From: Candidatus Dormiibacterota bacterium
GTDB taxonomy: Bacteria > Chloroflexota > Dormibacteria > CF-121
Direction: 5' to 3'
DNA length: 64,000 nt
Assembly: GCA_036564925.1 (NCBI GenBank)
Contig: DATCOB010000082.1
Location: 149 to 64,148, forward strand
Shown: one piece after another, positions 41,652 to 53,494 of the stretch
How the letters are laid out: the number at the start of each line of letters is the position of its first letter
Position numbering within the stretch: position 1 is the first letter of the stretch
Translations under genes and position numbers: made by a program
The notes under the pieces: model-generated
What the model was told of the DNA's origin: nothing
Database searches by the model: none
Seen by the model: only the letters and a program-made list of their open reading frames with translations

Positions 41652-44234
41652 TTAGAGGGCGGGCAGGCGCTGACGCAAGGTCAGCGCGTCGTGGAAGAGG
41701 TCGCCCTTCTCCAGCAATCGATCGCCAAGAGTCTTGATCGTCCACCTGTCTGGTCGTAACCTCGGATCGTCCAGCTCCTCCCAGCTGATCGGAGTCGATA
41801 CCGGTGCCCGGACGGCTGGCCGCACCGAGTAGGGGCCGGCCAAGGTCTTGTTGATCACGTTCTGCGTGTAGTCGATGCGGATCTTTCCGGTTCGCCGCTT
41901 GACCTCCCAGATTTCCGTGACCTTGTCGGGCATCAACTCCGCAATCATGTGCGCCAGCTTTTCGACGAATCCCCGGCTCTCATCAAGCGTGTAGCGGCGC
42001 TCGATCGGGATATAGACGTGCAGGCCGGTCTGGCCAGTCGTCTTCAACACGGCCTTCAGCGTCAGGTGATCCAGCGCGGTCTTCACCACCCTGGCGACGG
42101 CGATGACGTCCTTGAAGGTCGCGCCTTCCGCCGGGTCGAGGTCGACGACAGACCAGTCCGGGTACTCCGGCTTGTCGACGCGTGAGTACCACGGGTGCAG
42201 GTCGATCACGGCGTGGTTGGCCAGCCAGGCGAGCGTGGCGACTTCCTCGATGAGCATCCAGTCCTTGATGTTCTTGCGGTCCTCGTAGGTGAACGTCGGA
42301 ATCCAATCGGGGGCGTAGGCCGGCTTGTCCTTCTGCCAGAAACTCTTGCCGTGGATGCCATCCGGATGGGGATTCATCGAGAGGGGCCGGCGGCTGTAGT
42401 AGGGAATCAGCACCGGCGCCACCGCCGCGTAATAGCGGATCAGGTCGCGCTTCGTGAATCGATCCTCCGGGAAGAGTTGCTTGTCGAGGTTCGTCAGGTG
42501 CACGGTGCGGCCGCCGATTTCCCAGTCGCCGTCTTTGACGATCGCGTCCAGCGCCTCGAGCTCCTCGGCCGTCGCGCCTCGAAGCTCCGTCTTGAGCTTT
42601 TTGGCGATCGCGGCCGCGGCGCGGCTGAGCGGCGCATCCGGCACCTTCACGTCGGTTTTGGTGCGGCGCGGACGCGCGGTGCCCGTCCGCTCACGCCGAA
42701 CGGCTCGCGGTTCGACATCGTCGCGCATGCCGAGGAAGACCGGTTGGCGCATCAGGCCGTCTCGCGTCCATTCGGCGAATTTGACCTCGGCTACCAGCTC
42801 CGGCCGGACCCAGGTGGGTTTCTCATTCGCGCGGGGCGGTTTGCCGCTGAAGGGAGAAGCCTTGACGATCAGCGGTTTCATCAGCTTGTGCACCGAAGCC
42901 AGGGTCTTTTCGTCGAAGCCGCCACCCGTGTGCCCGGTGTAGATCAGCCCGGCGTCGTCGTCGTAAACCCCCACCAGCAGTGCGCCGAAGTGCTTCCGGC
43001 TATTGCGGGGTGCCGTGAACCCACCGATGACCACCTCTTGCTCTGCGACGGCCTTGATCTTCAGCCAGGCGCTGCTTCGAACGCCGGGCTGATAGGTGCT
43101 GTCCCGAAGCTTGGCCACAATCCCTTCAAGCCGCTTCTCCTTCGCCGCCCCAAAGAATGCTTTCCCCTGGCCCAGCACATGTTCGGAGTACTTGAGTACC
43201 CCGGCATCCCGCACGACGTTCCGCAGCAGGCGCTTGCGATCCTCGAGCGGAACGTTGAACAGCCGCTGGCCATCCAGGTAGACGATGTCGAACACGACAT
43301 ACTGCAGGGGCAGCGCTTCTTTGCCCCGGTTCTGGAGGAGCTGGAACGACGGGCGCCCCTCCGAATCGAGCGCGACCACTTCGCCGTCGAGCACGGCCTC
43401 CCTGGCCTTGACGAGCGATCCGATGGACTGCAGTTCGGGATACTGGCTCTCGACCATCCGGCCGGTGCGAGTTTGCAGAGAAACCGTCTCGCCTTTGATG
43501 AAACTGATCAAGCGCACGCCATCCCACTTCACTTCGAACAGCCACCGGTCGTCGTCGAACGCCGTCGTCACCAGCTGGGCCTTCATCGGATCCAGGGTGC
43601 GCGGCATCGGGCCCTTCTCGGCGGTCGCCAGGTCGATCAACCCACCCTCGCCCTCGTTGCGCCGGCTCGACCAGACCGCATCCTGGCCCTCTTCGATCTG
43701 CTCTCTTGTGCGGCCCGTCTTCACCGAAGACGAGAGGCGCTCGATATCAAAGGCGGGGTCGGCTGCTTCATCGCGCTTCTTGATCAGCAGCCAGTCTTTC
43801 TCGGAGCGGGTCCGGACGAGCGCGTACCGCCCGCTGAGCTTGACTCCATTGAGTCGGAATTTCACCTCACCGCGTCGTAGCGACTCTGCGGGCGTGGATT
43901 CCTCCAGGGTGAAGGTTCCCCAATCCCAAACCATGACGGTGCCGCCGCCGTACTCCCCCTTCGGAATCAGGCCCTCGAAGTCGTAGTAACTGACGGGGTG
44001 GTCCTCGACGTGGGCGGCCAGCCGCCGCTCCGACGGGTTGAGCGTCGGTCCTTTGGGGATGGCCCAGCTGACCAGGACGCCCTCCATCTCCAGCCGAAAG
44101 TCGTAGTGCAACCGGGTGGCCCAGTGCTTTTGCACCACGAATCGGTTCCCACCGCTCGGATCGGGCGCGCCCTCCGGTTCGGGCGTCCTGGCAAAGTCAC
44201 GCTTTCGGTTGTATTCGCTGAGCGATCGCGGCAT
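41652..44234 (-). CDS. ligD: DNA ligase D (phosphoesterase-ligase-polymerase)
   Basis: QKHWATRLHYDFRLE (PE domain), EVKWDG (ligase), KTTG-x-x-GLH and RIDY (polymerase). Confidence 0.95.
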   Translation of the reverse strand: MPRSLSEYNRKRDFARTPEPEGAPDPSGGNRFVVQKHWATRLHYDFRLEMEGVLVSWAIPKGPTLNPSERRLAAHVEDHPVSYYDFEGLIPKGEYGGGTVMVWDWGTFTLEESTPAESLRRGEVKFRLNGVKLSGRYALVRTRSEKDWLLIKKRDEAADPAFDIERLSSSVKTGRTREQIEEGQDAVWSSRRNEGEGGLIDLATAEKGPMPRTLDPMKAQLVTTAFDDDRWLFEVKWDGVRLISFIKGETVSLQTRTGRMVESQYPELQSIGSLVKAREAVLDGEVVALDSEGRPSFQLLQNRGKEALPLQYVVFDIVYLDGQRLFNVPLEDRKRLLRNVVRDAGVLKYSEHVLGQGKAFFGAAKEKRLEGIVAKLRDSTYQPGVRSSAWLKIKAVAEQEVVIGGFTAPRNSRKHFGALLVGVYDDDAGLIYTGHTGGGFDEKTLASVHKLMKPLIVKASPFSGKPPRANEKPTWVRPELVAEVKFAEWTRDGLMRQPVFLGMRDDVEPRAVRRERTGTARPRRTKTDVKVPDAPLSRAAAAIAKKLKTELRGATAEELEALDAIVKDGDWEIGGRTVHLTNLDKQLFPEDRFTKRDLIRYYAAVAPVLIPYYSRRPLSMNPHPDGIHGKSFWQKDKPAYAPDWIPTFTYEDRKNIKDWMLIEEVATLAWLANHAVIDLHPWYSRVDKPEYPDWSVVDLDPAEGATFKDVIAVARVVKTALDHLTLKAVLKTTGQTGLHVYIPIERRYTLDESRGFVEKLAHMIAELMPDKVTEIWEVKRRTGKIRIDYTQNVINKTLAGPYSVRPAVRAPVSTPISWEELDDPRLRPDRWTIKTLGDRLLEKGDLFHDALTLRQRLPAL

Positions 44235-44262
44235 GGAAATTTCAGTTTGCCAGAATGATCCT

Positions 44263-45447
44263 GTGGACACCGGGCTTCGCCACGATCTTTTGAAATTCGG
44301 CGCCGGGGCCGAGGAACGCCTGGTCACAATGCGGCGCGAGCTGCATGCCCAGCCCGAGCTCTCGTTCCAGGAGAAGGCAACGGCGGAGTACATCGTCGAT
44401 CATCTGAACGCGGGCGAACTCGCCCACCTGGGGCAGGGCGTGGGCGGCACCGGCGTCGTCGCCGACGTCAGGGGGAAGCTCCCAGGTCGCTCCGTGCTGG
44501 TGCGCGCCGATATGGACGGGCTTCCAATCGTCGAAGCGACCAATCTGCCGTACCGGTCAAAGAGCGATGGCGTCATGCATGCCTGCGGCCACGACGTCCA
44601 CATGGCGATCGCCCTCGCGCTTGCGGAGGGGCTGTCCGCCAACCGGCATCGCCTGCCCGGCATGGTCCGTTTCGCGTTCCAGCCGGCCGAGGAGGGCGCG
44701 GGCGGAGCCCGGCCCATGATCGACGCCGGTGTCCTCGACGGCATCGATCGCGTCATCGGCTTGCACGTCTGGTCCGAACTGCCTGTGGGAAAGATCTCGG
44801 TACGCGATGACGCCATGATGGCGAGCGCCGATCAATTTCGTCTGATCATCCGGGGTAAGGGTGGGCACGGCGCCATGCCAGAGGCCACCGTGGACGCGGT
44901 GGTCATTGCGGCCCAGGTGATCACCGCGCTTCAGACGCTGGTCAGCCGCGAAACCTCGCCCCGGTCACCTGTGGTCGTGACCCTCGGCAGCGTTCATGGC
45001 GGTACCGCGCCCAACATCATCGCCGGCGAGGTGGTCATCCAGGGAACGCTGCGAACGTTCGATACGCAGCTCCGGGAGGACTTACTCCTTCGCATTGCCG
45101 AGTTGAGCGCCGGGATCGCGGGCGCGCTGCGGGGATCCTGCGAGTTTCGGCACGAATCGGGAGCCCCCCCGGTCGTCAATGACCCGGCGATGAGTGCCCT
45201 GGTCGCCGAGGCCGCGCGGACAGTGGTCGGCGAGGATGGGGTGGTGCCCTTTATGCCACTGATGGTGGGCGAGGACTTCGCCTACTTCTTGAAGGAGCGC
45301 CCGGGTTGCTTCTTCCTCCTGGGGGGCGCGCCGCGCGGACCTCGGGTCGTCCACCACACGGCCCAGTTCCAGGTCGACGAGGCCTGCCTGCCGATCGGGC
45401 TCAAGGTGATGACGGCCGCGGTGTTGCGGTTACTGGCCCTGGACTGA
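44263..45447 (+). CDS. M20 family amidohydrolase
   Basis: HAQPELSFQE, RADMDGLP, MHACGHD, QPAEE and EDF motifs. Confidence 0.93.
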   Translation: MDTGLRHDLLKFGAGAEERLVTMRRELHAQPELSFQEKATAEYIVDHLNAGELAHLGQGVGGTGVVADVRGKLPGRSVLVRADMDGLPIVEATNLPYRSKSDGVMHACGHDVHMAIALALAEGLSANRHRLPGMVRFAFQPAEEGAGGARPMIDAGVLDGIDRVIGLHVWSELPVGKISVRDDAMMASADQFRLIIRGKGGHGAMPEATVDAVVIAAQVITALQTLVSRETSPRSPVVVTLGSVHGGTAPNIIAGEVVIQGTLRTFDTQLREDLLLRIAELSAGIAGALRGSCEFRHESGAPPVVNDPAMSALVAEAARTVVGEDGVVPFMPLMVGEDFAYFLKERPGCFFLLGGAPRGPRVVHHTAQFQVDEACLPIGLKVMTAAVLRLLALD

Positions 45448-45450
45448 GTC

Positions 45451-45708
45451 CTAGAACTTTGGGCGGCGGAGGCTGGGTCGCACCGTATAGCCGATCAGGA
45501 TCAGGCTCAACAGGAGTGCCGCCAGCATGCTGCCCCAGTTCAAGGGGAACCCAGCCACCGCGGCCAGCAGGCCCAGGGTGGAGCCGAGGAGGGTCACCAT
45601 GCCCAGCAGGCGCACCACGCGGTTGAAGCGGCTGCGAAAGGGAACCCGGATCCTCGGGCGGGGTTCGGCACATTCGGTCGTCGATCGCTGCGCGATGTTC
45701 TCAGCCAA
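45451..45708 (-). CDS. Small two-TM hypothetical protein
   Basis: Two hydrophobic helices; the start is uncertain. Confidence 0.55.
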   Translation of the reverse strand: MAENIAQRSTTECAEPRPRIRVPFRSRFNRVVRLLGMVTLLGSTLGLLAAVAGFPLNWGSMLAALLLSLILIGYTVRPSLRRPKF

Positions 45709-45824
45709 CTCCGGGGATATAACGAAACGACGCCTCGTCTCCCGTCACGGGCCCGTTACAGTCGATTCTCGGGAGGATGACGGCGGGCGACCGAACGGAC
45801 GTCGCAGCCACCTATAATTCCGAC

Positions 45825-46220
45825 TTGATGCCCACCGCCCTGCGGGATGCGCGCACGGCCGAGCAGGCGATGTCCGGTCAATTCGCCTTCTGCTTTCCGA
45901 ATACGACCCTCGCGCAGGCGGCCAAGATGATGGCCCAGAACCGGGTTTACGAACTTCCCGTCATCGTCGATCAGCGGTGCCTCGGTTACGTGTCATATCT
46001 GGACATCCTGCAGCGCTATGTCAAGGCACGGCTTGGCGTTCGGGTCGCCGACGTCATTCGGACGCCGCTGCCTGAGGTTCGGCCCGACACGCCGTTGTCC
46101 GACGCCGTCGGGGTCCTGCGGGAGAGCGGGCGTCACCTGGTCCTCGTCACGACGGAAGCCGGGATGCCGATCGGGGCGGTCACCCTGCGGGATGTGACCC
46201 GCGTCATGGGTCAACCCTAG
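45825..46220 (+). CDS. CBS-domain protein
   Basis: CBS pair; TATAAT (45813-45818) 6 nt before TTG, with ATG at 45828. Confidence 0.85.
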   Translation: MMPTALRDARTAEQAMSGQFAFCFPNTTLAQAAKMMAQNRVYELPVIVDQRCLGYVSYLDILQRYVKARLGVRVADVIRTPLPEVRPDTPLSDAVGVLRESGRHLVLVTTEAGMPIGAVTLRDVTRVMGQP

Positions 46221-48427
46221 TGCCCAGTCTCAGCAAGATCCTGCAGCCGATCGGCGCCACGTGCGCAGCCGACACCAGCGCCGCCGAGGCCATCCGGCAG
46301 CTCCGGGCCTCTGGTGAGGACGCGTTGTTGGTCAAAATGGACGGCGGGGTTGTCGGCGTCTTCGGGTATCGGGAGGCCCTTCACGCCTTCGGCGACGGGG
46401 TCTCACCGGTCGAGAAGTTCATGCGCCGGCCTTTGCCAGGACGCAATGTGGCGGACTCAATGGAGTCGGGCGCTGACATCATGGTCCGGGAGGACACGCC
46501 GATCGTCCTGCTCAGTGAGGATGAGGGCGCGTTGTTTCGCAAGACGTCCAGGCCTGTCGGGATGGTGAGCGCCTATGCCATCCTGGCCGAGATCGGGAAG
46601 ACGACGACGGACACCGCCTCGAACAAGGTGTTTTTCGGGCGTAAGGATCTGGGCCTGAACGTGCCGGTGTCGCCGTGCCAGCGCGCCTGCCCGATCCACC
46701 AGGACATCGCCACCTATGTCGATTACGTCTCGCAGGGTCGCTACCTCGATTCGTGGCTAGTCATCCACGAGACCAACCCATTCCCCTCGATGCTGGGCCG
46801 TCTGTGCAACCACCCGTGCGAAACGGACTGCAAGCGTGGCTGGGTGCAAGGACCCGAGAATGCGGTGTCGATCAAGTCGCTCAAGCGTTTCGCGACCGAT
46901 TATGCGTGGGCCCGCGGGATGAAGATCGATTACCGCCGGGCGCCGGAGAATGGCAAGCACATCGCGGTCGTCGGATCGGGGCCGGCCGGGCTCACGGCGG
47001 CCCAGGACCTGCGTCTGATGGGCTACGCGGTCGACCTGTACGAACGCGAGAAGAAGCTCGGCGGCCTGCTATCGGCCAGCATCCCGCACTTCCGCTTTGA
47101 GATCGATCAGCTGCTCTGGGAAATCCAGATGATCGTTGATACGGGCGTCACGGTCTTGCTCGAGAAGAATGTCGGCAAGGACATCAAGGTTGAGCGGCTG
47201 CTCGATGACTACGATGCGGTTTTCCTTTCTGTGGGGATGATGACGGGCCGGATCCTGCCGGTGCCCGGGTCGGATCTGCCAGAGGTCATTTCGGCGATGG
47301 AGTTCCTGCGGATCCGCTCCTACGACGTCATTCCTGACAACTTCCCCAAAGGCGGCGACGTCGTGGTGATCGGCGGCGGCGCGGTGGCCACCGATGCGGC
47401 GCAGACCTCGATCAAGAGCGGAGCGCGCAAGGCATGGATGGTGTCCATTGAGCCGGCCGACCGGCTCCCTGCATTCGGGAACGAACTGGTCGAAGCGCGC
47501 GAGATCGGCCTGCAGCTGCACACGGGCGTCATCGTCAATGCCATCAAGGCCGATGAGCAGGGTCACGTCAAAGGCGTGGAATTCATCCGTGTGGACGAGA
47601 AGAAGCTCGAATTCGATCCCGAAAGTGGCAAGCTGCTGATCAGCACCGTGCAGAAGATCCCGGGCAGCGAGCACGTCATCCCGTGCCGCTATGCGATCTT
47701 CGCCTCCGGCCAGATCATGGATTTCGCCCAGGACGCGGGCGTGCCGCTAACGCCGCGCAAATTGATGGAAGCGGACACGGGCGGCCACACCCGGGTCGCC
47801 AAGTTGTTTGCCGGCGGTGACTGCGTTGAGGGGCCGTCCTTCATCGTCAACGCAGTCGCCTGGGGCCACCGGGTCGCCCGCTCGATCAACGAGTTTCTCG
47901 GTGCCTCAGTGCCGCGGGATGCGAAGGCCCTCACGGTGATCGAGGCGACGGATGACCATCGAGAGGCCGACTACTATCCGCGCGAAGAACCGCCCATCCT
48001 TCCCGCGGACAAACGGATGGACATGAGCCCCGTCGAGCTTTCGTGGAACGACGAGCAGGCCATCACCGCGGCGCTGCGCTGCTTTCAGTGCGACACCGTC
48101 CACCACGTGGACGAGTCCACCTGCATCCTGTGCGGGGCGTGCGACGACGTCTGTCCGGAAAAGGCGCTCGACGTGATCGTGTTTGGGGAAAATCGGGATA
48201 CATCGAGCGGCGGCTTTGTCGAGATCTGCAACACGGTGCTCGGAGAAGAGTTCGGGGGAAAGGCAGGCAAGATCATGGTCAACTACGATCGCTGCACGAA
48301 CTGCCGGATCTGCGAGGATCACTGTCCGGTGAACTGCATTACCTTCCAACGGGTCCGCTTCCCCGACGACACGATGCAGATGATCCCCTTGACGCCGGTG
48401 CAGGCGCCCGCAAGGGCTGGGGTCTGA
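46220..48427 (+). CDS. CBS + GltD/DsrL-like FAD oxidoreductase + 2x[4Fe-4S] ferredoxin fusion
   Basis: PCQRACP, LCNHPCETDC, GSGPAGL, GGG-x-x-A-x-D, AGGD, RCFQC and two CxxCxxCxxxCP motifs. Confidence 0.88.
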   Translation: MPSLSKILQPIGATCAADTSAAEAIRQLRASGEDALLVKMDGGVVGVFGYREALHAFGDGVSPVEKFMRRPLPGRNVADSMESGADIMVREDTPIVLLSEDEGALFRKTSRPVGMVSAYAILAEIGKTTTDTASNKVFFGRKDLGLNVPVSPCQRACPIHQDIATYVDYVSQGRYLDSWLVIHETNPFPSMLGRLCNHPCETDCKRGWVQGPENAVSIKSLKRFATDYAWARGMKIDYRRAPENGKHIAVVGSGPAGLTAAQDLRLMGYAVDLYEREKKLGGLLSASIPHFRFEIDQLLWEIQMIVDTGVTVLLEKNVGKDIKVERLLDDYDAVFLSVGMMTGRILPVPGSDLPEVISAMEFLRIRSYDVIPDNFPKGGDVVVIGGGAVATDAAQTSIKSGARKAWMVSIEPADRLPAFGNELVEAREIGLQLHTGVIVNAIKADEQGHVKGVEFIRVDEKKLEFDPESGKLLISTVQKIPGSEHVIPCRYAIFASGQIMDFAQDAGVPLTPRKLMEADTGGHTRVAKLFAGGDCVEGPSFIVNAVAWGHRVARSINEFLGASVPRDAKALTVIEATDDHREADYYPREEPPILPADKRMDMSPVELSWNDEQAITAALRCFQCDTVHHVDESTCILCGACDDVCPEKALDVIVFGENRDTSSGGFVEICNTVLGEEFGGKAGKIMVNYDRCTNCRICEDHCPVNCITFQRVRFPDDTMQMIPLTPVQAPARAGV

Positions 48428-48428
48428 C

Positions 48429-49427
48429 ATGGCTAGGTTGACCGTCACGGAAGGGGTGGCGACGCGTGATGTTGCCGCGCAGCGGCCGGTACTCAATGCC
48501 TGGCGGCTTACGCCGCTGGCGTTTTATCTGCTGGGATTTCTCCTGGTCCGCCCGGACCTCGCGCGACTTCCGGGCGCGATCGCCGATTTTTCCCTCCACC
48601 TGTACTTCACGGCGATGGTCCTCTATGTGGGGGCGATGTTCTTTTACTTCGCCTATTTCGCTTACCGTCGGGAGGGGCTGCGCTGGCTGGGATTGACGCT
48701 GGCGGTCCCGGGTGCCGCCGTGCATCTCGGGGCGATCATCAGCCGTGGGTTCGCCGATGGCCACTACCCGCTGGCCAACATGTACGAGTACAGCTCGATG
48801 TTCGCCCTCGTCGCGGTCGCCGCCTACCTGCTGATGACGGTGCGGTATCCCGTTGCTTCGCTGGGTGGCGGCGTCGCGCTGTTCGTGGTCGTCGCGCTGA
48901 TGGGCATCGGCTACGGGCTCTACCAATCGCCGGAGCCCCTCGTACCGGCCCTCCAGAGCTACTGGCTCAAGATCCACGTGAGCAGCATGATGGCCTCCTC
49001 CGGGATCCTGGTGTCGAGCTTCGTGTTCGCGGCGCTCTACCTGGTCAAAGACCGAAGCGCGAACGCCAGGTCGTGGCTCAGCGGCTCGGCGATCGCCGCC
49101 CGGTTGCCGTCACTCGAGACGCTGGACCGCCTCACATTCCGGGCTATCCTGCTGGGCTTCCCCATCTGGACCTTCGGGACGATGGCCGGGGCCATCTGGG
49201 GTGAGCATGCCTGGGGTCGGTGGTGGGGCTGGGACCCAAAAGAGACATGGGCCGCGATCACGTGGATCGTCTACGCCATCTACCTGCACGCGCACGGCTT
49301 GCGGGCCTGGCGGGGGCGGCGCACGGCGCTGATCGCGACCGCCGGCTTCATCTCCATCATGGTGACGCTCTACGCGGTGAACCTCTGGATCGTCGGACTC
49401 CATAGCTACGCGAAGGGCGCCGGCTAA
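48429..49427 (+). CDS. ccsA: Cytochrome c biogenesis protein CcsA/ResC
   Basis: HYPLANMYE, LQSYWLKIHV and WWD motif WGRWWGWDPKETW; C-terminal LHSY. Confidence 0.92.
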   Translation: MARLTVTEGVATRDVAAQRPVLNAWRLTPLAFYLLGFLLVRPDLARLPGAIADFSLHLYFTAMVLYVGAMFFYFAYFAYRREGLRWLGLTLAVPGAAVHLGAIISRGFADGHYPLANMYEYSSMFALVAVAAYLLMTVRYPVASLGGGVALFVVVALMGIGYGLYQSPEPLVPALQSYWLKIHVSSMMASSGILVSSFVFAALYLVKDRSANARSWLSGSAIAARLPSLETLDRLTFRAILLGFPIWTFGTMAGAIWGEHAWGRWWGWDPKETWAAITWIVYAIYLHAHGLRAWRGRRTALIATAGFISIMVTLYAVNLWIVGLHSYAKGAG

Positions 49428-50744: not shown

Positions 50745-52160
50745 ATGCCCTTGCTCGACCAATCACTCGTGGACAGCGTGATCAAGCGCGCGCTGCGTTC
50801 CGGGGCGGACTTCGTCGAGCTGTTCGTCGAGCGAAAGCGCAACCAGGCGATCAGTGTGGAAGAGGGCAAAGTCCAGCGGGTCAACTCCGGAAATGATCAC
50901 GGTGCCGGTCTTCGGATCATTCATGGCGGCACGGTTAGCTACATCTATACGGAAGACCTTTCGGAGGACGCCCTCCTCAAGACCGCCGACCTCGCCGCAT
51001 CCATCGGTCGACGGGGGGGCGGAAAATACGCGCTGGGACAGCTGATCGGCGTTCCCAACAGGCCGCAATCCATCGAGGTGCCGCCGGACTCGATCGGGCC
51101 TGAGGCAAAGATCGAATTATTGCTGGAGGCGGACCACGCGGCCCGTGCCGTGGATGGCGCCATCAAGCAGGTGGGCGTCGGGTACGGCCAGAGTGCGCAG
51201 GAGGTACTGGTCGCCAATTCCGAGGGGATTCGACACACGGACTCGCGGACGCGGGTTCGGCTGATGGTCCATGCCGTCGCGGAGCGCAATGGCGAGATTC
51301 AGACCGCGATGGAGGCGCCGGGGTCGCAGCGGGGCTTCGAGTTCTTCGATGACACCTCGCCCGCCGAGTACGCGCGCGCTGCGGCCGAGCGCGCCGTGGC
51401 CCTCCTGGACGCGGGCCCGTCGCCAGTCGGGACGATGGCTGTCGTCATCGGCAACGAGTTCGGGGGCGTCCTGTTCCACGAAGCCTGTGGACACGGGCTC
51501 GAGGCGGACTTTGTCGGGAAAGGGACGACCGTGTTCGGCGGAAAGATCGGCCAGGCGGTCGCCAGTCCTATTGTGACGGCGATCGATGATGGGACGTTGC
51601 CGAGCCGCTGGGGCACGCTCGCGGTCGACGATGAGGGTGTGCCGACACGCCGAAACGTTCTCATCCAGGACGGCATCCTGGTGAGCTACATGTACGACCG
51701 ACTCCGTAGCGGCCAGCAGAACCATCCACCAACGGGAAATGGACGGCGTCAGTCCTACCAGCACCTCCCCATTCCGCGCATGACCAACACGTTCATCGCC
51801 GCCGGCGCGCACTCCGTTGACGACATCGTCGCGGCAACGGCTCGCGGGTTATATGCGAAGAAGCTGGGTGCGGGCCAGGTGGATGTGACGAACGGCGACT
51901 TCGTCTTCGCGGTGACTGAGGGCTACCTGATCGAGGATGGAAAGGTCGGTCGCCCCGTGCGCGGCGCCACCATCGTCGGCAATGGGCCGCGCGCGCTCCA
52001 CAAGATCGACATGGTCGGCAATGACCTCAAGCTGGCGCCAGGGACGTGCGGCAAGGATGGGCAGGGTGTGCCGGTCTCGGTGGGCCAGCCGACCATCCGG
52101 GTCAGTGAGATGACGGTTGGCGGTACGGGCGCGGTCTCCGGCGGCGCGATGCGCCCGTGA
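50745..52160 (+). CDS. tldD: TldD metalloprotease
   Basis: HEACGH zinc motif, DDEG, RMTNT and CGKDGQ motifs. Confidence 0.95.
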   Translation: MPLLDQSLVDSVIKRALRSGADFVELFVERKRNQAISVEEGKVQRVNSGNDHGAGLRIIHGGTVSYIYTEDLSEDALLKTADLAASIGRRGGGKYALGQLIGVPNRPQSIEVPPDSIGPEAKIELLLEADHAARAVDGAIKQVGVGYGQSAQEVLVANSEGIRHTDSRTRVRLMVHAVAERNGEIQTAMEAPGSQRGFEFFDDTSPAEYARAAAERAVALLDAGPSPVGTMAVVIGNEFGGVLFHEACGHGLEADFVGKGTTVFGGKIGQAVASPIVTAIDDGTLPSRWGTLAVDDEGVPTRRNVLIQDGILVSYMYDRLRSGQQNHPPTGNGRRQSYQHLPIPRMTNTFIAAGAHSVDDIVAATARGLYAKKLGAGQVDVTNGDFVFAVTEGYLIEDGKVGRPVRGATIVGNGPRALHKIDMVGNDLKLAPGTCGKDGQGVPVSVGQPTIRVSEMTVGGTGAVSGGAMRP

Positions 52161-53494
52161 ACCCGGCCGCGGACCGCCTGCTCGATCGCGCGAAAAAAAA
52201 CGGCGCGGAGGAGGCCGAGGTCTACATCTCCCGGGGCAGCGAGTTGACCGTCAACGTGTACAAGCAGGAGATCGAATCCCTCGTCTCGGCGGAGAGTCGG
52301 GGGATCGGGCTCCGCACGCTGCGCGAGCACCGGGTGGGCTTTTCCTACACCTCCGACACCGACGACGCCGCTCTCGATGCGCTGGTCGATGAGGCGCTCG
52401 AGAACGGCCGCTACAACCATTCCGACGACGCCAATGTGCTACCGGAAACGGAGCCCGTTCTCCCCCTTGCCGGCCTGTACTCTCCGGGACTCGCGTCAGT
52501 CGATCCGCAGCGCAAGATCGACTTTGCCCTCGAGATGGAGCGTCGCGCCATCTCGATCGACCCACGGGTGCGCCGGGTCAGCGAGGCCGTTTACAGCGAC
52601 GGAGCCGGAAGTGTCGAGATTTATAACACGCGCGGCCTGGCCGTGGACTTCCACCGCAGCGTCGCCTATGGTGTCCTGCAAACGATCGCCGAGGCGGAGG
52701 GCGAGATGCAGTCCGGTTTCGCCTTTACCCACGGCCGGGACATTGATGCGCTCGATCTCGACGCGGTGGTTACCGAGGCGGTGGCGAACGCCGCCGGGCT
52801 ACTGGGGGCCAAGCGCGTCCCGACGGCCAGGGTCCCGGTTGTGCTGCATCCGCACGCCGCCGCCATGATCCTCGGCATCCTCTCGAGCTCGTTTTCGGCG
52901 GACGCCGTCCTCAAGCAGCGGTCCTTGCTGGCGGGGAAGGTGGGAGAGCAGGTTGCCGCCACCGTCCTGACCATCACGGATGACGCCAGGCTCCCCGATG
53001 GCCTCGCCAGCCGGCCGTTCGACGGTGAGGGGGTGCCGGCGCGCCGCAACGAACTGATCAAGGACGGGGTGTTGCAAGGCTACCTCCACAACACCTACAC
53101 CGCCAGGCGAAGCGAGAGCCGGTCGACCGGCAACGCGGTACGCTCGTATAAGAGCGTGCCCGAAGTCGGCGTCACCAACCTGGTCCTCACGCCGGGCACC
53201 ATCAGCCGTACGGAGTTGCTCAACCGGGTGGGTAACGGACTGCACGTATCGCAGCTCCACGGATTGAACACCGTCAACCCGATATCCGGCGAGTTCTCCC
53301 TGGGATTGACCGGGCACTGGATCGAGAACGGCCAGCTGACGCAGCCGGTCCGGGAGCTCACGGTGGCCGGCAATGTGATCGACCTGTTGAAGCGCGTGGT
53401 CGCCATCGCCGACGACCTTCGCTTCATGTTCGCCGGTGGGTTTGTGGGAAGTCCGACCGTGCTGATCGAGGAGTTGCCCGTCGGCGGGACGTAG
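52157..53494 (+). CDS. pmbA: PmbA/TldE
   Basis: FDGEG and SGEFS motifs, no HExxxH; paired with tldD. Confidence 0.93.
   Translation: MNPAADRLLDRAKKNGAEEAEVYISRGSELTVNVYKQEIESLVSAESRGIGLRTLREHRVGFSYTSDTDDAALDALVDEALENGRYNHSDDANVLPETEPVLPLAGLYSPGLASVDPQRKIDFALEMERRAISIDPRVRRVSEAVYSDGAGSVEIYNTRGLAVDFHRSVAYGVLQTIAEAEGEMQSGFAFTHGRDIDALDLDAVVTEAVANAAGLLGAKRVPTARVPVVLHPHAAAMILGILSSSFSADAVLKQRSLLAGKVGEQVAATVLTITDDARLPDGLASRPFDGEGVPARRNELIKDGVLQGYLHNTYTARRSESRSTGNAVRSYKSVPEVGVTNLVLTPGTISRTELLNRVGNGLHVSQLHGLNTVNPISGEFSLGLTGHWIENGQLTQPVRELTVAGNVIDLLKRVVAIADDLRFMFAGGFVGSPTVLIEELPVGGT

What the first reader, a model, noticed from the sequence alone, without database searches (positions are those of the whole stretch)
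45813..49427. CBS + CBS-GltD/DsrL-like-ferredoxin fusion + lone ccsA operon
A stand-alone CBS pair overlaps a 735-aa protein. That protein fuses a degenerate CBS pair to a GltD-like FAD/Fe-S core and a C-terminal 2x[4Fe-4S] ferredoxin (the DsrL/SudA-type layout). The acidic SIEP at the dinucleotide site hints at NADH rather than NADPH. ccsA follows 1 nt later with no ccsB/resB, thioredoxin or CxxCH cytochrome in the window. Neither gltB nor dsr genes are present. I infer an adenylate-sensing redox module that feeds a membrane heme-binding protein, and I know of no description of this combination.
Basis: partly seen in the sequence, partly recalled or inferred. Interest (0 to 1): 0.56.

Follow-up and report, generated by a model that had tools for sequence, protein, structure and literature searches.

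The report
CBS-gated iron-sulfur flavoprotein beside ordinary ccsA
A soil Chloroflexota (Dormibacteria) lineage carries a conserved gene pair, a nucleotide-sensor protein plus an NADH-type iron-sulfur flavoprotein with its own sensor-like domain, and the haem-attachment gene ccsA next to it is an ordinary cytochrome c maturation gene that sits there in one family only.

Summary
A CBS-pair gene overlaps a 735-aa CBS / NfnB-GltD-like / 2x[4Fe-4S] fusion by 1 nt (TAGTG), and ccsA follows after a 1-nt gap.

The conserved unit is the pair, not the trio. Across 80 public Dormibacteria loci the stand-alone CBS gene sits directly upstream of the fusion in all 78 loci with room. ccsA follows only in the window's own family (28/28). 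In the sister family it never follows (0/48); a tadA-like deaminase follows instead (48/48).

The window's ccsA is the genome's only one. It passes the System II model and keeps the WWD motif. Its partners lie on other contigs: resB, a ccdA-thioredoxin fusion and a 3xCxxCH cytochrome c in a Rieske/cyt b-oxidase cluster.

The fusion is the genome's only GltD-like protein. I found no GltB, DsrAB or NfnA.

The N-terminal domain is a degenerate CBS pair. A complex model predicts that it binds the canonical stand-alone pair.

The scan met this unit before on other DNA (e1-933002, e1-3086085, e1-4539379).

Verdict: a CBS-regulated DsrL/NfnB-like flavoprotein with an unknown partner, a new variant of a known kind. 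A link to CcsA is unlikely.

The parts
45813..45818 (+). TATAAT -10-like box, 9 nt upstream of the ATG at 45828. It may drive a leaderless or short-leader transcript.
   Evidence: Read directly. The consensus scan found no full sigma-70 site, so function is not shown.
45828..46220 (+). Stand-alone canonical CBS pair (Bateman module), about 130 aa. The longest ORF starts at 45777.
   Evidence: Pfam CBS, 75.4 bits. Relatives start at the MPT... position. Both G-h-h-S/T-x-x-D/E ribose-binding motifs are kept. The gene lies directly upstream of the fusion in 78/78 loci with room.
46220..46600 (+). Fusion residues 1-127: degenerate CBS pair, proposed docking site for the stand-alone CBS pair.
   Evidence: hhalign 95%, E 3.7e-8. 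AF2 pLDDT 82-91. The motif Asp positions are not conserved. Complex model ipSAE 0.82 against a best control of 0.00.
46667..46924 (+). Fusion residues 150-235: Fer4_20-type Fe-S domain with 5 invariant Cys (C153, C157, C196, C200, C204). It matches only profile positions 30-112.
46952..47905 (+). Fusion residues 245-562: FAD domain with an embedded NAD(H) Rossmann fold. The motif VSIEP (E411) stands where NADPH-type relatives have YRR.
   Evidence: Pyr_redox_2, 83 bits. Alignments to NfnB, StnC and 9bov_A show YRR at this place. Invariance. The meaning of YRR is taken from PMC7596348.
48002..48097 (+). Fusion residues 595-626: displaced first segment of the Fer4_20 domain, with the invariant R-C-F-Q-C motif (C621, C624). 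It is inferred to complete the second [4Fe-4S] cluster.
   Evidence: HMMER aligns residues 595-626 to NfnB (4ylf_B) residues 13-44, and to the equivalent post-flavin CxxC of 9bov_A, 8oh5_C and 9n5u_A. The segment alone hits Fer4_20 positions 4-29, E 0.033, which is sub-threshold.
48098..48355 (+). Fusion residues 627-712: C-terminal 2x[4Fe-4S] ferredoxin domain (two CxxCxxCxxxCP motifs with an insert of about 30 aa).
   Evidence: Fer4, Fer4_7 and Fer4_10 hits. All eight Cys are invariant.
48429..49427 (+). ccsA (resC; called CcsB by NCBIfam): System II cytochrome c synthase and haem-export subunit. It is the only copy in the genome.
   Evidence: TIGR03144, 233.9 bits against a cut-off of 187.6. 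Only one PF01578 match in the genome. The WGRWWGWDPKETW motif and the flanking His align to solved CcsBA.

Best explanation
Two separate things lie side by side.

(A) A self-contained two-gene module found in two families of class Dormibacteria.
- Its enzyme is a DsrL/NfnB/GltD-type iron-sulfur flavoprotein. The NAD(H) site carries an acidic residue, E411, where NADPH-type relatives have YRR.
- The electron path runs through FAD, then two [4Fe-4S] clusters in the GltD-like domain, then a tethered 2x[4Fe-4S] ferredoxin domain. One of the GltD-domain clusters is inferred to be completed by a CxxC that lies after the flavin domain.
- The ferredoxin domain passes electrons to, or takes them from, a partner that is not encoded nearby.
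- An N-terminal degenerate CBS pair serves as the docking site for the co-translated canonical CBS-pair protein. That protein binds an adenosine-type ligand and gates the enzyme.
- Direction: NAD(H) specificity makes NAD+ reduction from a low-potential donor slightly more likely than NADH oxidation. This is inference only.

(B) ccsA is the ordinary System II haem exporter and cytochrome c synthase. It works with resB and ccdA-thioredoxin, which are encoded elsewhere, and matures the 3-haem cytochrome c of the Rieske/cyt b complex.

Its position behind the module is a rearrangement fixed in one family. It probably causes co-transcription there, not a shared function.

Shown: the anatomy, the distribution, the synteny and the presence of partners elsewhere. 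Inferred: the cofactor count, NADH preference, CBS gating, direction of electron flow and the partner.
For: Architecture and invariant residues.

Closest solved relatives by sequence and fold: NfnABC/StnABC GltD-like subunits, NfnB, GltD and DPD.

The fused N-terminus is a CBS pair. The stand-alone pair keeps both ribose-binding motifs; the fused pair does not.

Complex model of fusion residues 1-135 with the stand-alone CBS protein:
- Score 0.82 against 0.00 for the best of 3 controls.
- That mark was reached by 58 of 80 solved complexes and 2 of 110 mismatched pairs.
- The runs share at least 88% of contacts, and the partner pLDDT is at least 86.
- My own alignments were used. CBS-pair dimers are common among solved structures, so the pass may reflect likeness.

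Pair conserved, third gene not (smaller sample):
- CBS directly upstream in 78/78 loci with room.
- ccsA downstream in 28/28 loci of the 82-91%-identity group and 0/48 of the 56-61% group.
- tadA-like deaminase downstream in 48/48 of the 56-61% group.

In the sister family ccsA lies on other contigs. It follows resB in one genome and is followed by a thioredoxin-like gene in two.

Own genome:
- One ccsA.
- resB on C61.
- A DsbD_TM + AhpC/TSA fusion on C66.
- On C65: Rieske, cyt b, SUIV, a 3xCxxCH cytochrome c, COX2 and COX1.
- No paralogue of the fusion, no GltB, no NIR_SIR.
- The only NfnA-like protein is PyrK, inside a carB-pyrK-pyrD-pyrE operon.

Distribution: families f1 21/23 and f2 15/18; f3 0/23, f4 0/11, f52 0/5; nothing in other Chloroflexota families sampled. 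There is only one full-length cluster at 50% identity among 1.84 billion representatives. The next relatives are 36% identical, 570-620 aa, and lack CBS. One relative carries a receiver domain in that position instead.
Against: No partner or acceptor was identified, so the physiological reaction is unknown.

The 0-1 nt ccsA junction is kept in all 28 loci of the window's family, which is tighter than mere neighbourhood.

The AF2 model is poor over the Fe-S parts (pLDDT below 50), so the proposed C153/C204/C621/C624 cluster is untested. The segment's Pfam match is sub-threshold.

NADH preference rests on one motif. The CBS ligand is unknown.

The complex score could come from the model's memory of CBS dimers.
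Confidence: 0.6

Rival explanations
1. The CBS-gated flavoprotein delivers electrons to CcsA, for example to keep haem ferrous at the cytoplasmic or transmembrane haem site before export. The trio would then be one functional unit in the window's family.
For: The stop/start junction of 0-1 nt is conserved in 28/28 loci of the family. resB is detached from ccsA in this genome. There is a published, modelled precedent for a GltD-like FAD protein with four Fe-S clusters docking on a membrane haem complex: the anammox Rieske/cyt b complexes (PMC12954380).
Against: The sister family keeps CBS+fusion with ccsA elsewhere (0/48), and a housekeeping tadA is just as conserved downstream there (48/48). 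Lineage-wide adjacency therefore carries little weight here. Families f3, f4 and f52 of the same class lack the fusion. I did not search them for cytochrome c maturation genes. In this genome ccsA is fully accounted for by resB, ccdA-thioredoxin and cytochrome c elsewhere. Within the family the whole 10-kb block is syntenic at 80-90% identity, so the loci are not independent.
Confidence: 0.08
2. An electron-bifurcating Nfn-type transhydrogenase or ferredoxin:NAD(P) enzyme. It would need a second subunit and a second nucleotide site.
For: The best solved matches are bifurcating NfnABC, StnABC and NfnB subunits.
Against: The genome has no NfnA-like partner apart from PyrK in the pyrimidine operon. 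No NuoE/F-like genes lie next to the module. The NADPH motif YRR is replaced by SIE. Only a single linear Fe-S chain is evident.
Confidence: 0.05
3. A dedicated NAD+-reducing electron sink for the genome's 2-oxoacid:ferredoxin oxidoreductase. The tethered ferredoxin domain would act as the OFOR acceptor.
For: An OFOR alpha subunit is present on C25. The DsrL study had to exclude DsrL-like genes that are directly linked to pyruvate/ketoisovalerate:ferredoxin oxidoreductase genes (PMC7596348, section 14), so such pairings exist. NAD(H) specificity fits a catabolic direction.
Against: OFOR is found in 78/81 genomes of the class, including all families that lack the fusion, so there is no discriminating co-occurrence. 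The two are never adjacent in the loci examined.
Confidence: 0.15

Closest known systems
DsrL (NAD(P)H:acceptor oxidoreductase of the Dsr sulfur pathway; PMC7596348)
   Same: The domain order is the same after the CBS pair: Fe-S domain, FAD with an embedded NAD(P) fold, a linker, then a C-terminal 2x[4Fe-4S] ferredoxin. It lacks the YRR motif that marks the NADPH-type DsrL-2 enzymes.
   Different: The genome has no dsrAB or any NIR_SIR gene. This protein has an extra N-terminal CBS pair and a separate CBS partner. Its linker is about 65 aa against about 100 aa. The best NCBIfam model (PRK12771) scores below its cut-off, 393 against 516.
NfnB / SudA and the GltD-like modules of NfnABC (9bov_A, 9n5u_A) and StnC (8oh5_C)
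   Same: These are the best sequence and fold matches, 28-33% identity. Like StnC, this protein keeps only 5 of the 8 N-terminal Fe-S Cys (PMC7483475) and has a CxxC after the flavin domain.
   Different: There are no NfnA, NuoE/F or NuoG-like partners or domains. It has SIE where they have YRR. It carries a plain ferredoxin tail instead of a molybdopterin-like domain. It has CBS regulation.
[quoted passage not shown]
   Same: The FAD/NAD(P)H/Fe-S core fold is the same.
   Different: The genome has no GltB. TIGR01317 and TIGR01318 score far below their cut-offs. This protein has added CBS and ferredoxin domains.
NAD(P) oxidoreductase subunits of anammox Rieske/cyt b complexes (Kustd1483, Kuste4570; PMC12954380)
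   Same: The cofactor string is FAD plus four Fe-S clusters, and those subunits are modelled docking onto a membrane haem protein.
   Different: Here the Rieske/cyt b genes lie on another contig with no GltD-like gene beside them. Sequence relatedness to the anammox proteins was not tested here.
CcsA/ResC of System II cytochrome c maturation (solved as CcsBA, 7s9y)
   Same: The window's ccsA passes the equivalog model and keeps the WWD motif and conserved His. ResB, CcdA-thioredoxin and a cytochrome c client are present in the genome.
   Different: The genes are dispersed over four contigs instead of forming a resABC-type cluster.

Membership tests
DsrL | The organism contains dsrAB (criterion 1 of PMC7596348) | tested here: not met
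   No PF01077 NIR_SIR match in the 92%-complete genome.
DsrL | Domain order: Fe-S, FAD with embedded NAD(P), linker, C-terminal 2x[4Fe-4S] (criterion 2) | tested here: met
   with an extra N-terminal CBS pair and a shorter linker.
DsrL | Not directly linked to POR/VOR genes (criterion 3) | tested here: met
   Neighbours are CBS, ccsA, MFS, M20 or tadA. The OFOR gene is on C25.
GltD (glutamate synthase small subunit) | A GltB large subunit is present, and the equivalog/subfamily model passes | tested here: not met
   PF01645 gives only 27- and 22-bit partial hits. TIGR01317 scores 217.5 against 447.7, and TIGR01318 scores 226.5 against 482.95.
NfnB (bifurcating NfnAB) | An NfnA partner (FAD/[2Fe-2S], PyrK-like) and an NADPH-type YRR motif | tested here: not met
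   The only PF10418 protein is PyrK in the carB-pyrK-pyrD-pyrE operon. The motif reads SIE.
NCBIfam PRK12771 'NAD(P)-binding protein' subfamily | Score above the curated cut-off | tested here: not met
   393.2 bits against 516. It is still the best-scoring model, aligned over residues 150-709.
CBS pair (PF00571), stand-alone protein | Two CBS repeats above the gathering score | tested here: met
   75.4 bits in 2 stretches.
CBS pair, N-terminus of the fusion | CBS fold and homology | tested here: met
   Pfam alone is below threshold, 20 against 24 bits. hhalign gives 95%, and AF2 gives two beta-alpha-beta-beta-alpha units at pLDDT 82-91. The ligand motifs are degenerate.
System II CcsA/ResC | Equivalog model, WWD motif and conserved His | tested here: met
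   TIGR03144 scores 233.9 against 187.6.
System II pathway | ResB/Ccs1, a CcdA plus thioredoxin branch, and a CxxCH client in the genome | tested here: met
   ResB on C61. A DsbD_TM + AhpC/TSA fusion on C66. A 3xCxxCH cytochrome c on C65.
Anammox-type R/b-associated NAD(P) oxidoreductase | Encoded within a Rieske/cyt b gene cluster | tested here: not met
   The Rieske/cyt b cluster is on C65. The only GltD-like gene of the genome is on C82.

The most novel reading that the evidence does not exclude
In the ccsA-linked family, the tethered ferredoxin domain of the CBS-gated flavoprotein docks on the cytoplasmic face of CcsA (or CcsA/ResB) and reduces haem before export. That would be a dedicated, energy-state-gated haem reductase for System II cytochrome c maturation, a step for which I know of no assigned enzyme (from memory, not checked here).
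Probability: 0.07. Interest if true: 0.75.

Novelty: new variant of a known kind. Interest (0 to 1): 0.33.

Why it matters
GltD/NfnB/DsrL-type flavoproteins are modular electron-input units, and their partners define their biology. This lineage-restricted version has a double CBS arrangement: a canonical free sensor docking on a degenerate fused one. It would be an example of ligand gating of such a unit. It occurs in Dormibacteria, soil bacteria discussed for persistence under energy limitation.

A relative with a receiver domain in the same position suggests that N-terminal regulatory domains recur in this clade.

For the scan, the useful result is negative. The eye-catching ccsA adjacency is a family-level rearrangement, and an equally conserved tadA neighbour in the sister family serves as an internal control.

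Tried and rejected
Synteny was obtained from the genome search, the fetch from genomes and the search for related loci instead.
- OFOR co-occurrence: OFOR is in 78/81 genomes of the class whether or not the fusion is present, so it tells nothing.
- An NfnA partner was rejected because the only candidate is PyrK. A GltB partner was rejected. A DsrAB partner was rejected.
- AF2 of the full protein gave mean pLDDT 64, with the Fe-S parts below 50. It could not test the proposed cluster geometry, and no coordinates are available.
- The promoter scan found no sigma-70 consensus. The 8 terminator-like hits (3.4 +/- 2.0 expected) lie inside coding sequence and were disregarded.
- ESM Atlas neighbours score 0.89, which counts as a lead only. 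They are 600-aa CBS-less FAD/Fe-S oxidoreductases.
- The weak NCBIfam hit of the CBS protein to an anti-phage CBS family (34.6 bits against a cut-off of 260) was rejected.
- A literature search for Dormibacterota plus CBS domain found nothing.
Full report
**Observation**

The window (65% GC) is contig C82 of a 2.31-Mb, 92%-complete MAG. On the + strand, ORFs run 45777/45828-46220, 46220-48427 and 48429-49427. The junctions are TAGTG, a 1-nt overlap, and TGA-C-ATG, a 1-nt gap.

Pfam gives these domains:
- The first protein is a CBS pair (75 bits).
- The 735-aa protein has Fer4_20, Pyr_redox_2 and two 4Fe-4S motifs, plus a sub-threshold CBS hit.
- The third protein is Cytochrom_C_asm.

Relatives begin their CBS protein at that methionine.

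**The fused N-terminus**

It is a CBS pair. Profile-profile comparison with the neighbouring CBS family gives 95% probability, E 3.7e-8, over residues 2-128. AF2 folds residues 1-125 as two beta-alpha-beta-beta-alpha units at pLDDT 82-91.

It is degenerate. The Asp/Glu of the G-h-h-S/T-x-x-D ribose motif is not conserved in either repeat. The stand-alone protein keeps both motifs.

A complex model of fusion residues 1-135 with the stand-alone protein scored 0.82:
- The best of 3 controls scored 0.00.
- That mark was reached by 58 of 80 solved complexes and 2 of 110 mismatched pairs.
- At least 88% of contacts were shared between runs, and the partner pLDDT was at least 86.
- My own alignments were used.

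CBS-pair dimers are common among solved structures. The pass therefore shows likeness to such dimers and supports binding, but does not prove it.

**The redox core**

The best solved relatives, by sequence and by fold, are the GltD-like modules of NfnABC (9bov_A, 9n5u_A) and StnC (8oh5_C), followed by NfnB, NfnI/SudA, GltD and DPD.

Only five Cys are invariant in the N-terminal Fe-S domain: C153, C157, C196, C200 and C204. The Pfam match covers only profile positions 30-112.

HMMER aligns residues 595-626, which contain the invariant R-C-F-Q-C, to the first 13-44 residues of NfnB (R-C-L-Q-C). It also aligns them to the equivalent post-flavin CxxC in 9bov_A, 8oh5_C and 9n5u_A. The segment on its own hits Fer4_20 positions 4-29, but only at E 0.033.

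I infer that the opening segment of the Fe-S domain has been displaced to a position behind the flavin domain. C621 and C624 would then complete the second cluster, giving four [4Fe-4S] clusters in all. The StnC paper likewise reports that StnC keeps only 5 of the 8 usual Cys (PMC7483475).

The NAD(P) site reads V-S-I-E-P, with I410, E411 and P412 invariant. NfnB, StnC and 9bov_A have Y-R-R at this place. YRR marks NADP(H) preference in DsrL-2 (PMC7596348). NADH preference here is an inference from that motif.

**Distribution**

Among 1.84 billion 50%-identity representatives there is one full-length cluster. The next hits are 36% identical, 570-620 aa long, and begin at query residue about 150, so they have no CBS domain. 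One 730-aa relative (P0158) has a receiver domain in that position instead.

Within the phylum the protein appears only in two families of the window's class. In the class sample the counts were f1 21/23, f2 15/18, f3 0/23, f4 0/11 and f52 0/5. Public records name these genomes Candidatus Dormibacteria/Dormiibacterota, Limnocylindria or Chloroflexi.

The tallies include the unpublished genomes G164, G224, G242 and G255. No conclusion depends on them, because the public loci give the same picture.

**Synteny**

In 80 public loci the stand-alone CBS gene lies directly upstream of the fusion in all 78 loci with room.

In the 30 loci whose fusion is 82-91% identical to the window's:
- ccsA follows directly in 28 of the 28 loci with room.
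- The whole LigD-M20-CBS-fusion-ccsA-(MFS)-TldD block is conserved.

In the 50 loci at 56-61% identity:
- ccsA never follows (0 of 48 with room).
- A tadA-like deaminase follows in 48 of 48 (Pfam identification).
- In the five of these genomes searched, ccsA lies on other contigs. It sits directly after resB in G119 and is followed by a thioredoxin-like gene in G083 and G155.

So the pair is the unit. A housekeeping tadA is as faithfully 'linked' in one family as ccsA is in the other. Family-wide adjacency among close kin is therefore weak evidence of shared function.

**ccsA itself**

It is the only PF01578 gene in the genome. It passes the System II equivalog model, 233.9 bits against 187.6. 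It aligns to solved CcsBA with the WWD motif and the flanking His intact.

Its partners exist elsewhere in the genome:
- ResB lies on C61, beside NuoL/M-like genes.
- A DsbD_TM + AhpC/TSA (CcdA-thioredoxin) fusion lies on C66.
- C65 carries a respiratory cluster: Rieske, cyt b, subunit IV, a 347-aa cytochrome c with three CxxCH motifs, COX2 and COX1.

**Partners of the flavoprotein**

- The genome has no second GltD-like gene.
- It has no GltB.
- It has no NIR_SIR/DsrAB.
- Its only NfnA-like protein is PyrK in the pyrimidine operon.
- An OFOR is present, but OFOR occurs in 78/81 genomes of the class regardless of the fusion.

The partner therefore remains unknown.

**Mechanism proposed**

The enzyme is an NAD(H)-linked relay: FAD, then two clusters, then two clusters in a tethered ferredoxin domain. 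It is gated by a canonical CBS sensor docked on the degenerate fused CBS pair.

NAD specificity favours NAD+ reduction in vivo. This follows the reasoning applied to DsrL-1 in PMC7596348. The direction and the partner are inference only.

The junction is tight in one family, and anammox Rieske/cyt b complexes offer a modelled precedent for such a flavoprotein docking on a membrane haem complex (PMC12954380).

**Earlier notes of this scan**

The scan met the same unit before on other DNA. A follow-up (e1-933002) reached a similar verdict. I reached mine from my own tests.

**Tools unavailable**

**Verdict**

This is a new variant of a known enzyme kind, of modest interest.

Noticed in passing
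own genome C61:29375-30652 (L004:7376-8653): The only resB of the genome is detached from ccsA. It sits directly after two NuoL/NuoM-like antiporter-type genes and before Tad pilus genes (TadE/TadG-like).
   Followed up: partly
own genome C66 (L033:1492-2694): CcdA (DsbD_TM) is fused to a C-terminal AhpC/TSA-Redoxin thioredoxin-like domain in one 400-aa protein. This combines the CcdA and ResA roles of System II.
   Followed up: partly
own genome C65 (L121:2835-9239, minus strand): A respiratory cluster: Rieske, cyt b, subunit IV, a 347-aa cytochrome c with three CxxCH motifs, then COX2 carrying an extra C-terminal cupredoxin/plastocyanin-like domain, and COX1.
   Followed up: partly
L066-L115 (e.g. 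L021:8289-8756): In the sister family a tadA-like deaminase (MafB19-deam / dCMP_cyt_deam_1) follows the fusion on the same strand in 48/48 loci with room. In 46 it follows within about 200 nt, and in 2 at about 1.6 kb.
   Followed up: yes
P0158: A 730-aa relative, 35% identical, has a response-regulator receiver domain in place of the CBS pair, ahead of the same Fer4_20 / flavin / 2x[4Fe-4S] layout.
   Followed up: no
G216:C2:613808-615980: In one sister-family genome the fusion matches as two pieces (query residues 4-353 and 433-722). This could be a frameshifted or disrupted copy.
   Followed up: no
window 45451-45708 (minus strand): A small ORF of 85-90 aa lies between the M20 peptidase gene and the CBS gene. 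It was not examined further.
   Followed up: no
record titles (L057, L061, L064, L074, L086, L104): Some MAG records carrying this Dormibacteria-type locus are labelled Eisenbacteria, Acidoferrum, Actinomycetes, Angelobacter or Saccharimonadales. These are probably mislabelled or misbinned records.
   Followed up: no
window 41652-44393 (minus strand) and 50745-53494 (plus strand): A three-domain LigD (phosphoesterase, ligase, primase-polymerase; 913 aa) and a TldD/PmbA pair flank the locus. Both are syntenic across the window's family.
   Followed up: partly
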